From NCBI GenBank assembly GCA_013265495.1, contig MU058221.1, positions 4,758,066 through 4,822,065 of the forward strand: a DNA stretch of 64,000 nt, in the 5' to 3' direction. This stretch comes from Vicugna vicugna. Lineage: Eukaryota. Every line of letters starts with the position of its first letter. Position 1 is the stretch's first letter. Below are positions 37,922 to 63,993 of this stretch, piece by piece. The notes below the pieces were generated by a model. It had not been told where the DNA came from. It did not search any database and saw nothing but the letters and a program-made list of their open reading frames with translations. Both the position numbers and the translations under genes were made by a program.

Positions 37922-38089
37922 GTGTCAGCTGTGATGCATGTTTAAAAGGAAATTTTCGAGGTCGCAGATATAAGTGTTTAATTTGCTACGACTACGACCT
38001 TTGTGCATCTTGTTATGAAAGTGGTGCAACGACGACAAGGCATACGACTGACCACCCGATGCAGTGCATATTAACAAGGGTAGATTTTG
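37922..38089 (+). CDS. KCMF1: KCMF1 coding exon 2 (ZZ-type zinc finger)
   Basis: ttttcatag|GT acceptor and TTTG|gtacgt donor; 168 nt encoding (G)[55 protein letters not shown], the KCMF1 ZZ domain. Confidence 0.98.
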
Positions 38090-54400: not shown

Positions 54401-54507
54401 CCACCGTAAGACTTGGTCCAGGTAAAATTCGCGTTAAAATACTCACCCGGAAAGGTGTCTGGTCAGTTTCATCTGTACGTAAATTGCTTTCTCCGCTTTC
54501 ATTTCAG

Positions 54508-54609
54508 ATTTGCCCGATATGCGCGGCCTTGCCCGGAGGCGACCCCAACCACGTCACGGACGACTTCGCAGCCCATCTCACACTTGAACACCGGGCCCCT
54601 AGAGATTTA
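54508..54609 (+). CDS. KCMF1: KCMF1 coding exon 4
   Basis: atttcag|ATT acceptor; 102 nt encoding ICPICAALPGGDPNHVTDDFAAHLTLEHRAPRDL; followed by the U12-type donor ATATCCTTT. Confidence 0.96.
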
Positions 54610-57264
54610 ATATCCTTTTACGAGGCACCGAGGGAAAGCGTTGTTTGTGATGTTGTCATTTTGATTATTTTTAAGGACTGTATTCCTGAAGAGAAAAACT
54701 AACCTCCCAGTTATGTTAGTTGATTTGACCTTTTTCTAAAAGTGACTCAGTACTGAGATACAATTTCTGATTTCTTTCTCTGCGCTTTGACTGTTACATG
54801 AACCGTGCTGAGTAAGTGAAAGCTGACTTGCTCACCATCTTTAGTTCATTACCATCTGATTTTTTGTTGTAAGACAGTTTAGCCAGGTTATAAGTCTTCG
54901 GGAGGGTGCTTTCATACAAAAGAGGAAAATGCGAATCCAGACTAAAATCTGATTCGTTAACCGTAAGGAGGCTGTGCCTGTTTGCCGGCCCTGCGCTCTG
55001 CTACCTCGCCCGGTAGTGGGTGCAGTGGTGGGGAGGTGCGCATCGCACGGCTCCCTTCCCTTCTGCAGTCTCCTTCTCCAGAGAGAGGCGTTTCCCGCCC
55101 AGTCTCTGAGTAGGATCGCCTAAGGTCAGGTCCAGCTCTGATTCCTTTCCCGCTTTCGTGTCTGCTCGCCCTCCCAAGCCACCCCCACGGCCATTCCTGG
55201 CAGTTTTCCCTGCAGTCTCCAGGCGGGTACTAGCCCACCAGAGTAAGTAATTTTGTACTCAGTGCTTCTGGTTTCAAGTTATGAGTCGTTTTTCTAATTG
55301 TTCTGTTCTCATGTAAAGATTTCTGTGTTCATTACAATTTGAAGCAATTCAAGAGCTAATGACAACTTTCCTCCCTGCCAGACTTCACTCTGATTCCTTT
55401 GCTGGCCTCCTGGCAATCATAATTCAGCCTGAGGCTTACTTGAGGAAGAAACTGGTCTGGTGGTTTTCTTGTCCTACAGCTCCCATCCCATGTTCACAGT
55501 TCTTAATTTTCTGTTCAGGAATGTGGCCCTTTAGAGTTAGGAAAAGTAGAAACTAATAGAAGGTGAAAGATATGGAACCATCCCGAGAAATCAGAGTATC
55601 AGCCTGGTCTGAGCCAGTCTGGGGCACGTGCTGAACGAACAGGAACCCACGCTCCTCTCTCCTAAATGCAGGGGACACTGAAAGCAAAATCAAGAATACA
55701 GTGCTTGTGCTTTGCTTTTTTTTTTAAACAGAATATGAGAACCCAAATGGGCCAAGAATACTTTAGCCTTTGAGTCACTTTGCGTTTTGTATAAAAGAAT
55801 CCTGCAACAATACCCAGAAGAGTTACGCTTGACCCACGCTTCTCCCCATCTTCACGCAGAAGCTACTAGGCAGCTCGTTTAAAACCACGCTGTTACCCTG
55901 CACGTTTTCAGCAAGGTCAAGGGCCTCTAGTGAAATTAGTATCCATTCAGTAGACTGTCTCACATCATCTACATCCGTTTTTGTGAGGTTTTTAGAAGTC
56001 TTTGGTTACCAGGAGATTAAATGAGGCAAAACACAAGAATGAGAGAAGGCATCTGTTGCATATTAGATTCCTAACAGGAATCACCATTAAGTTCTAGAAA
56101 GCAGAATGCTGACACAGCGGTTATCCTGGAAACACGTTGATTTTCCAGGTATTCCGAGTGCCGCTATGTGCTAATTCTGTTTGTCATGAGAGCCTCAAAA
56201 CCACCCCGCCTTTTTTTTTTTTAACTACTTTGATGGAATTCTTCCCAAAGTGCACTTTTCATAGCATCACTTTCTGTAGAACCTAAGCCACCGTCATGAA
56301 TCTGGGGGGCTTCCTGTCCCCACAGGACTCCTGAACCATCCTCTGAAGAACCAGGAAGCCAGCCCAAAATTCACCCGCCTCGTATAGCTGCTCTGTTGGC
56401 TGCTTTGAAAGAAAAGTCTCTCCTGCTGCAATATCTGGCCCCTCCTGCACACTCACACTCGCCTCTGAGGAGCAAACAATGTTGCCCTCGTGAGTTTGGG
56501 CAGCTGTTTGCTCCTCAGGACCGTCTTCAGTTTCACTCACGTGCAGGTGTTTTAAGATAATCGAGGCTGCTGGAAATTTGATTTCTTGATAAACATGCTG
56601 TTAACTCTGTCCATTTATACAAGAAATTCAAATCTGGTTTTCTGCTTAGCAGCAGCAGTTAAAAAAAAAAAAACTTGAGGACCGATTAAAACTGAAAGCC
56701 CAAAGGAGCCTTTTACTCCGGCATTTGAATTGTTTACAGTGTTCCCTTTCTCATCATAGATGGTCGGTGAGATTTGATTAGCCTGTATATTAGCACAGTG
56801 CTCACCAGATCTAAAAACTGATGCTTCTTATTTGTGGTTACTTCGACGTGAACGTATGTGGACTTCAGCTCTGAGATTAGGGCGAGGGACTGTCTGGCCC
56901 TGGGTGTCTGACCAGGCGAAGTCCCCGCCTCCACTGGGGACGCCCCTCTGGTCCTTGTAGCTGGAGCCCAGGAGGAAGCGCCTTTCCACCTGGAGAAGCT
57001 TTTTTTCTCTTTGAAAACACACACACGTTCACAAGATACACACGTACTATGCACACGCTCACACATGGCTTCATGTTTGAGTGTCTTTTTAAAGAGTTAA
57101 TAGCCATTATATGTACAGTTGTGACATTTGCATTCTAAATGAAATGTGCTATTTTAAAATGCTTATAATTTAGGAAACCTGCGTGCCTGTCTTGCCAGGG
57201 CTCAAGTGATTTTTTTTTTTCTTTCTGTGAAATACTTGAGTCCTTTTCTTAACTTTGGAGCCAT
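54610..57264 (+). other. KCMF1: U12-type (minor spliceosome) intron 4 with AT-AT termini
   Basis: 5' end ATATCCTTTT matches the U12 donor consensus RTATCCTTT; branch site TTTCTTAAC at 57245-57253; intron ends ...GGAGCCAT, 12 nt after the branch A; the join preserves the frame (RDL|DESSG). Confidence 0.92.
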
Positions 57265-57439
57265 GATGAATCGAGTGGTGTTCGACACGTACGTAGAATG
57301 TTCCACCCCGGCCGGGGCTTAGGAGGGCCCCGAGCTCGCAGGTCAAACATGCACTTTACCAGCAGCTCTGCTGGCGGCCTCTCTTCCTCTCAGAGCTCGT
57401 ATTCTCCAAGCAGCAGGGAAGCCATGGATCCTATAGCTG
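57265..57439 (+). CDS. KCMF1: KCMF1 coding exon 5
   Basis: 175 nt encoding DESSGVRHVRRMFHPGRGLGGPRARRSNMHFTSSSAGGLSSSQSSYSPSSREAMDPIA; GCTG|gtgagt donor. Not in the ORF track; translated by hand. Confidence 0.95.
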
Positions 57440-58168: not shown

Positions 58169-58299
58169 GAGGGGAGGGTATAGCTCAAGTGGTAGAGCAC
58201 ATGCTTAGCATGCATGAGGTCCTGGGTTCAATCCCCAGCACCTCGTCTAATAAATAAATAAATAAATAAACCTAATCTCCACCCCCCCCCAAAAGAAGG
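58169..58299 (+). mobile_element. Vic-1-like SINE, full length
   Basis: ggggagggtatagctcaagtggtagagcacatgcttagcatgcatgaggtcctgggttcaatccccagcacc, (TAAA)n; degenerate TSD taggaacagtgtt / taagaacaatgtt. Confidence 0.92.
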
Positions 58300-59483
58300 T
58301 AAGAACAATGTTAATCATAAAACCTCCCTTCAGATGTGAGGTACACATATAAAATCTTAATTCCAAATTCACTCTGGGTGTTTGCATGTGCAGTAAGCCT
58401 CAAAAAAACTGAGTTTTGGGAATTGGAAAAAATACTTCATCCAAAGGAAATATTTGCCTGCTGTCCTTTGTAGCAGGCTCTAAAAGTAATTTCTGGGAGC
58501 AAAATTCAAAACTGAGACGTTTTCTCTTTTTTTGTAAGTGAAGATCAGCTCGTGTTAGTGATGGACCGTATGAAAGAATGGTGTTAAGAACCCTGGGATG
58601 AAACAACAGTAGGCAGTAAAACAGAGACGTGTCCTGTTAATGAGTTTTAATGTGAAGTGTTTGCCAGCCTGGGAATGTCGGCGAGGTGACCGTCAGTTCC
58701 CTGTAAGCCAGGCAGACCTGCACCAGGGAGAAGGCGGTCACCGCACCTCACTTAGATGAGGGGCGGGGACAGGGATCCGCGGCCCCTGATGAGCCCAGCA
58801 TTATTCACACAGCAGAGTCTGGACTGTAACCGGCCACAGACGGGCTGTACAGGCAGGAGCCAGTCGGCCTCACTGGGCGTCACCAGCGGTCCTCCCTGCA
58901 GGCTGCTCTGGCGCTCAGGCAAAATACAAGAAAGCCCCAGAGAGAAGGCAGAGGGGGCGCTAGCATCACAGTTAGGAGTGATGCAGGCCTCCTGGGCTCG
59001 ATTCTGATAGTCGTTCAATCAGCAAATAAGTGTTGGAGCGTCTCCTACGTGTCAGGTGCTGTTCTAAGAACTGGGACTGTCCTAAACAGCAGGCTGGATC
59101 CCTGCTTTCAGGGAGCTCGTCTTGAGAGGGTTTATGTTCTGATTGGAGCGGCAGGTGAACCGCCGTAATCCACTAAAATACTCAGAGAAAGCGTATAGCT
59201 AAATTAGCTCATTAAGCAGACAACGTAAACAATTTGCTATGTTTTGCTTAAAAATAATTTATGTGAGCTAATATTCCTGAGTATTTGCCTTCCCCACCTG
59301 CAGCAGCGCCGGCCTCCAAGGGGGCGTTGTGAAGGGTGCTGCGCTCCGAGCCGAAAACTGAGCGTTGCCGCGGGCTACCTGCCCGTCGGTGATGGGTTTC
59401 GCGTCCCTCTGGTAGAAAGACCCGCGGCGTCTCGTCTTCCTCCTGCGCGAGCGGCCATTAACTGTCTCCGTTTCCGTTGGCAG

Positions 59484-59766
59484 AGCTTTTATCTCAGTTG
59501 TCAGGCGTGAGACGTTCTGCAGGAGGACAGCTTAACTCTTCTGGCCCTTCCGCTTCTCAGTTACAGCAGCTGCAGATGCAGCTGCAGCTGGAACGGCAGC
59601 ACGCCCAGGCCGCGCGCCAGCAGCTGGAGACCGCGCGCAACGCCACCCGGCGCTCCAACGCCAGCAGCGTCACCGCTGCGGTCACGCAGTCCACGGCGAC
59701 GGCCAGCACAGCCAACACGGACAGCAGTCAGCAGGCGCTGCAGAACTCCCAGTTCCTCTTAACAAG
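59484..59766 (+). CDS. KCMF1: KCMF1 coding exon 6 (Gln-rich coiled coil, Ser/Thr/Ala-rich)
   Basis: ttggcag|AG acceptor and ACAAG|gtagtc donor; 283 nt encoding (E)LLSQLSGVRRSAGGQLNSSGPSASQLQQLQMQLQLERQHAQAARQQLETARN...QNSQFLLT(R). Confidence 0.97.
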
Positions 59767-63731: not shown

Positions 63732-63993
63732 GTTGAACGACCCTAAGCTGTCCGAAGCAGAGCGCCAGTGCATGGAGAGCGAGCGCGCGGACCGCAGCCT
63801 GTTCGTGCAGGAGCTGCTCCTGTCCACGCTGGTGCGCGAGGAGAGCTCGTCCTCGGACGAGGAGGAACGGGGGGAGATGGCAGATTTCGGTGCTATGGGC
63901 TGTGTAGATATTATGCCTTTAGATGTCGCTTTAGAAAACCTAAATCTGAAAGAGAGTAATAAAGGAAATGAGCCTCCACCACCTCCTCTTTGA
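63732..63993 (+). CDS. KCMF1: KCMF1 last coding exon 7 up to the stop codon
   Basis: cacgcag|G acceptor; encodes LNDPKLSEAERQCMESERADRSLFVQELLLSTL...KESNKGNEPPPPPL* with TGA at 63991-63993. Confidence 0.98.

What the first reader, a model, noticed from the sequence alone, without database searches (positions are those of the whole stretch)
54610..57264. KCMF1 intron 4 is a minor-spliceosome intron with rare AT-AT ends
Seen: there is no GT donor after exon 4, but ATATCCTTTT; a branch site TTTCTTAAC lies at 57245-57253; the frame-preserving acceptor is CCAT|GATGAA, and no AC occurs within the usual ~10-16 nt after the branch point. Established: U12 introns are rare and mostly GT-AG or AT-AC; AT-AT is an uncommon subtype, and 3' choice is set mainly by distance from the branch point. 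Inference: an ancestral AC|G junction would be a CpG, so deamination could have produced AT|G. Such an intron may be rate-limiting for KCMF1 expression and is easily mis-annotated by gene predictors. A U12 intron in KCMF1 is probably already catalogued in other species; whether the AT end is lineage-specific cannot be told from this window.
Basis: partly seen in the sequence, partly recalled or inferred. Interest (0 to 1): 0.7.

Follow-up and report, generated by a model that had tools for sequence, protein, structure and literature searches.

The report
Known AT-AT minor intron of KCMF1
This is ordinary: the fourth intron of the mammalian KCMF1 gene carries minor-spliceosome signals and ends in AT instead of the usual AC, as already catalogued for the human gene, and fish-like and invertebrate relatives keep AC, so the AT likely arose by a single C-to-T change.

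Summary
Intron 54610-57264 has a U12 donor, a branch site at 57245-57253 and an in-frame AT acceptor 11 nt after it.

It is already known. The human orthologue is listed as an AT-AT U12 intron, with the same branch site and spacing, in the de Wolf 2021 datasets. Its retention there rises from 0.04 to 0.42 on CENATAC depletion. So the AT end is not specific to this species, and an assembly error is unlikely.

Added here: 17 of 18 orthologous acceptors in metagenome loci end AC followed by G, including two teleost-like paralogues; none ends AT. The ancestral CpG premise therefore holds; deamination stays an inference. A retrocopy-like contig joins exon 4 to exon 5 in the 57264 register.

Against 'rate-limiting': human baseline retention is low (0.04-0.08), and the intron scored unresponsive to U6atac, U12 and U4atac morpholinos. 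Base 57264 and junction reads of this species were not checked. The scan noted the same AT end earlier in an elephant-shark-type gene (unchecked).

The parts
37922..38089 (+). KCMF1 exon 2 (ZZ zinc finger), AG/GT flanks
   Evidence: near-identical to named KCMF1 proteins with PF00569
41263..41402 (+). KCMF1 exon 3, AG/GT flanks
54508..54609 (+). KCMF1 exon 4, ends at RAPRDL, phase 0
   Evidence: an RNA-run contig covers 54507-54609 and stops there
54610..54619 (+). U12-type 5' splice site ATATCCTTTT
   Evidence: same as human and human/mouse MIDB entry
54610..57264 (+). Intron 4, U12-type, AT-AT, 2655 nt
   Evidence: orthologue of human chr2:85043666-85046103, listed AT-AT
54700..54702 (+). 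First in-frame stop codon if the intron is retained
57245..57253 (+). U12-type branch site TTTCTTAAC
   Evidence: identical 9-mer in human
57263..57264 (+). Main acceptor dinucleotide AT, 11 nt after the branch 9-mer
   Evidence: human register; retrocopy-like joint; 73 of 185 homologous proteins carry the matching RDL-DE junction
57266..57267 (+). Possible second in-frame AT acceptor (would drop one Asp); use not shown in this species
   Evidence: 3 of 185 protein models (two Bos mutus, one goat) lack this Asp
57265..57439 (+). KCMF1 exon 5, ordinary GT donor
59484..59766 (+). KCMF1 exon 6
63732..63993 (+). KCMF1 exon 7, coding part to the stop codon

Best explanation
This is the mammalian copy of the ancient minor intron of KCMF1, with a U12 donor at 54610, a branch site at 57245-57253 and an AT end at 57264, likely removed by the minor spliceosome as its human orthologue is. 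U11/U12 would read the donor and branch site, and the 3' end would be set by distance from the branch point, which tolerates a changed last base. The ancestral end was AC followed by G; a C-to-T change before the split of human and this mammal gave AT, likely by methyl-CpG deamination. The change looks tolerated rather than regulatory.
For: Shown in sequence: signals, frame and spacing. Human orthologue listed AT_AT; its last 40 intron bases align to 57225-57264 without a gap by eye. Human retention rises with CENATAC depletion (0.043 to 0.42 at 48 h), CENATAC mutation (0.051 to 0.28) and ZRSR2 mutation (0.081 to 0.45). Mouse and fly orthologues respond to U11, U12 or U6atac loss. Outgroups: 17 of 18 loci with a readable acceptor end AC then G, 1 is GT-AG, 0 are AT; these fall into 8 related groups (7 AC, 1 AG), two of them teleost-like at 90-99% protein identity. 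A contig in DNA-type run X1 joins exon 4 to exon 5 with 27 of 30 shown letters matching in the 57264 register (compared by eye).
Against: No junction read counts and no read-level check of base 57264 in this species. The X1 joint is one contig at depth about 5 from a probable retrocopy, and its first letter differs. CpG is neither needed nor sufficient for an AT end: among 17 human A-type rows seen, both other AT-AT introns (UBR3, ERCC5) are followed by A, and 3 of 12 AT-AC introns keep AC|G. The human intron was scored unresponsive in 5 of 9 datasets (three morpholinos, two MOPD1). No bird, reptile, amphibian, marsupial or rodent acceptor was seen, so the change is dated only loosely.
Confidence: 0.92

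Rival explanations
1. An ordinary AT-AC intron with an assembly error or private variant at 57264.
For: Base 57264 was not confirmed in reads of this species; AC is the state in 17 of 18 outgroup loci.
Against: Human has T at the same position in a gapless alignment and is annotated AT-AT; an error recreating the human state is unlikely.
Confidence: 0.02
2. The AT end is a selected brake that makes this intron rate-limiting for KCMF1, and so for the UBR4-KCMF1 ligase.
For: [quoted passage not shown]
Against: Baseline retention in human cells is 0.043, 0.051 and 0.081, at or below the 0.081 median of unaffected introns and below 0.115 for retained A-type introns. The mRNA column shows log2 change +0.30 and +0.05 on CENATAC loss (column definition not checked). 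AC/AT switches between human and mouse are common (ERCC5, Gpaa1, Zc3hdc6, Slc9a8), which fits near-neutrality.
Confidence: 0.1
3. The second AT at 57267 is a main or regulated acceptor, giving an isoform that lacks one Asp.
For: In frame and 15 nt from the branch A; minus-Asp models in Bos mutus (P0076, P0129) and goat (P0053); alternative acceptor use flagged in the ZRSR2 dataset, site not given.
Against: 73 of 185 proteins have the Asp and 3 lack it; human annotation and the retrocopy-like joint use the first AT; 15 nt is outside the 11-13 nt optimum; the goat model has a second, unrelated gap in exon 5.
Confidence: 0.08

Closest known systems
Human KCMF1 U12 intron chr2:85043666-85046103 (de Wolf et al. 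2021, PMC8280824, supplementary tables; Olthof 2019 PMC6717393 and Olthof 2024 PMC11347168 supplements)
   Same: Same gene and position, same donor, same branch 9-mer, same 11-nt spacer, AT-AT ends, same exon-5 start.
   Different: 2655 versus 2438 nt; the base before the terminal AT is C here and T in human; a few spacer substitutions.
Drosophila CG11984/Kcmf1 AT-AC U12 intron (Lin et al. 2010, PMC2831892, table passage)
   Same: Listed as U12 in fly and human; responds to U12 and U6atac knockout.
   Different: Ends AC in fly; that paper treats the human intron as the same subtype and does not mention AT-AT.
AT-AT U12 introns as a class (Sheth et al. 2006, PMC1557818: 6 human, 6 mouse; 8 in one de Wolf table: KCMF1, HNRNPLL, UBR3, IK, SMC3, SRSF12, TCTN1, ERCC5)
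   Same: Same termini; AC/AT switching between orthologues already described.
   Different: KCMF1 is not in Sheth's Table 3; the AC|G outgroup states shown here were not found in the papers searched.

Membership tests
U12-type (minor) intron | 5' splice site RTATCCTTT at the exon boundary | tested here: met
   ATATCCTTTT at 54610, directly after the conserved exon end
U12-type (minor) intron | U12 branch site near the 3' end | tested here: met
   TTTCTTAAC at 57245-57253, identical to human
U12-type (minor) intron | Short branch-to-acceptor distance (optimum 11-13 nt) | tested here: met
   12 nt from A57252; optimum from PMC3584512
U12-type (minor) intron | Orthologous position held by U12 introns in other animals | tested here: met
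   U12 donor within 36 nt of the exon-4 motif in 24 of 27 loci covering it; in 4 of these (L001, L003-L006 type, 5 loci) the donor-like bases are exonic; human, mouse and fly listings
U12-type (minor) intron | Removal depends on the minor spliceosome | not testable with these tools
   Shown only for orthologues in published tables: yes for CENATAC, ZRSR2/MDS and Roifman, no for morpholinos and MOPD1
AT-AT subtype | Spliced product joins 54609 to 57265 | tested here: inconclusive
   Indirect only: one retrocopy-like contig, protein junctions, human annotation; no junction reads of this species

The most novel reading that the evidence does not exclude
KCMF1 intron 4 records recurrent, methylation-driven subtype switching: a junction CpG conserved across animals decayed to AT independently in mammals and in cartilaginous fish while teleosts kept AC. 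Losing the AC advantage let the neighbouring AT compete, creating a NAGNAG-like tandem acceptor in a minor intron that yields a minus-Asp KCMF1 isoform.
Probability: 0.15. Interest if true: 0.35.

Novelty: already known. Interest (0 to 1): 0.12.

Why it matters
Little is new. The practical value is for annotation: 40 of 73 cluster-representative KCMF1 proteins that reach the end of exon 4 have a wrong junction (a biased sample, since odd models form their own clusters). The modest addition is the polarity, AC|G ancestral and AT derived, which makes this intron a usable test case for CpG decay as a source of AT-AT minor introns.

Tried and rejected
No own genome is held. Base 57264 and spliced junction counts in this species remain unchecked. 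In one search no joints were listed. One RNA contig (X15, depth 73) stops at 54609 without a loose end, but this is one study only, and a contig of the DNA-type run stops there too, so it is at most a weak hint. X17 holds an intron-side contig spanning the donor (unspliced RNA or DNA; cannot tell). The branch site was hardly covered in any run. Residues read through the intron end in bad gene models (16 H, 11 Y, 1 Q of 28) cannot separate AC from AT because the codons are synonymous. The AG at 57260 was rejected: 8 nt from the branch A and out of frame. Mouse and zebrafish terminal bases were sought in supplements: no hit in PMC2831892; unreadable for PMC8848931, PMC9501576 and PMC1557818, and these may list them; file 13 of PMC8280824 was not searched. 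No KCMF1 or AT-AT mention in the main text of PMC7367187, PMC3291851 or the m6A preprint 10.64898/2026.10.16.759739. Searches for the CpG explanation or a KCMF1 AT-AT discussion in main texts showed none by title or in the passages read; subscription papers, U12DB, IAOD and MIDB themselves were not searchable. Of 57 metagenome loci, 39 gave no intron acceptor (most do not cover it; 8 read through without an intron or could not be placed). No look-alike scan notes by place.

Full report
Observation. The window holds KCMF1 exons 2-7 on the + strand. Exon 4 (54508-54609) ends at RAPRDL and is followed by ATATCCTTTT, with no GT at the boundary. TTTCTTAAC lies at 57245-57253. The candidate 3' ends after it are AG 57260 (8 nt from A57252, out of frame), AT 57264 (12 nt, in frame), AT 57267 (15 nt, in frame) and the first AC at 57286 (34 nt, out of frame). 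Each motif alone is expected about 0.4-0.6 times in the window, so position, not rarity, carries the case. The other four introns seen are GT-AG.

Already catalogued. Supplementary tables of de Wolf et al. 2021 (PMC8280824; passages and supplement rows seen) list human KCMF1 chr2:85043666-85046103 as AT_AT. The donor and branch 9-mer are the same as here, and by eye the last 40 intron bases align to 57225-57264 without a gap. One table holds 8 human AT-AT introns. The intron is minor in human and mouse in MIDB (PMC6717393 supplement rows). Lin 2010 lists the fly orthologue as AT-AC and U12 in both species (PMC2831892 passages). Sheth 2006 counts 6 human and 6 mouse AT-AT introns and several AC/AT switches between them (PMC1557818 passages). 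The AT end is therefore not particular to this species.

Is the 57264 acceptor used? Evidence is indirect. In run X1 (DNA-type, library not on record) one contig joins the end of exon 3 to exon 4. Another joins exon 4 to a sequence matching the start of exon 5 at 27 of 30 shown letters, in the 57264 register and not the 57267 one (compared by eye). The scattered differences suggest a processed pseudogene, a fossil of the spliced mRNA. An RNA contig of run X15 covers 54507-54609 and stops at the donor, a weak hint from one study. Among 120 homologous cluster representatives, 47 lack the exon-4 end, 31 have the expected junction, 2 lack the Asp, 18 read through the donor as ISF and 22 are otherwise odd. 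Among 65 further cluster members the counts are 3, 42, 1, 14 and 5 (one cluster was picked for its read-through). No junction read counts and no read check of base 57264 were obtained.

Direction of change. A metagenome scan with a Xenopus KCMF1 protein gave 57 loci, of which 18 show the intron's acceptor. Seventeen end AC followed by G, one is the GT-AG subtype (L011) and none ends AT. They collapse to 8 related groups (7 AC, 1 AG); only 9 of the AC loci also contain the donor. L029 and L043 are teleost-like paralogues (best hits 90-99% identical); the rest are far from all vertebrate proteins held. Branch-to-end spacing is 10-13 nt, except L021 (16 or 23). That it came by methyl-CpG deamination is an inference from general vertebrate mutation bias (own knowledge). 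It is not a general rule: of 17 human A-type rows seen, both other AT-AT introns are followed by A, and 3 of 12 AT-AC introns keep AC|G. An earlier scan note (e1-9963878, not checked here) reports AT in an elephant-shark-type gene. If right, that means two independent changes or a reversal in teleosts.

Mechanism. Established: minor introns are defined by donor and branch site, lack a polypyrimidine tract and choose the 3' end at an optimum of 11-13 nt; non-canonical ends work, often less efficiently (PMC3584512 passages). Shown for the human orthologue in published tables: retention rises from 0.043 to 0.25 and 0.42 on CENATAC depletion, from 0.051 to 0.28 in CENATAC patients and from 0.081 to 0.45 with ZRSR2 mutation. 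It scores 'yes' in 4 of 9 human datasets and 'no' in the U12, U4atac and U6atac morpholino and two MOPD1 sets (PMC11347168 supplement row). The mouse intron responds in 2 of 6 U11-loss sets and the fly intron to U12 and U6atac knockout (fly passage in PMC7644725; PMC2952598 table passage). Inferred for this species: the same pathway, with retention giving a stop at 54700 and likely decay of the transcript. 'Rate-limiting' is not supported: baseline retention is below the 0.115 median for retained A-type introns, and the mRNA column barely moves on CENATAC loss.

Verdict. A real, correctly described AT-AT minor intron that is already tabulated as such in human. Novelty: already known; interest 0.12. 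The additions are the AC|G outgroup states, the retrocopy-like joint and a possible tandem acceptor. The most novel reading left open, repeated CpG-driven switching with a minus-Asp isoform, has about 15% probability.

Noticed in passing
L028, L030-L033, L047 (e.g. L047:3203-3228); L002:1963-1988; L007:1248-1273: In these invertebrate-like loci the U12 donor is doubled 12 nt apart (two ATATCCT in phase). In L002 and L007 the first copy has decayed synonymously into exonic ISFL codons and only the second remains: donor duplication and sliding of a minor intron.
   Followed up: partly
L003-L006, L015, L016, L001 (e.g. L004:1135-1146, L015:1432-1443): The intron is absent but the 12-nt ISFL/ISFV insert stays in the coding sequence, in L001 and L003-L006 still as a perfect donor-like ATATCCTT: a likely fossil donor left after intron loss. 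L001 may be an mRNA contig.
   Followed up: partly
L011:2228-2383: The orthologous intron is of the GT-AG U12 subtype (156 nt), a full subtype switch at the same position.
   Followed up: no
window 54508-54609, run X1 records 2 and 5: Contigs joining exon 3 to 4 and exon 4 to 5 in a DNA-type run point to a processed KCMF1 pseudogene in this species group.
   Followed up: partly
window 58170-58300: A short tRNA-like interspersed repeat with five further copies in the window; it resembles the camelid Vic-1 SINE (name recalled, not tested).
   Followed up: no
window 59620-59740 and 63732-63790: Exons 6-7 carry several substitutions at residues otherwise conserved in the mammalian proteins held (best identity 90% for exon 6), and exon 6 lies in a CpG-rich patch.
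   Followed up: no
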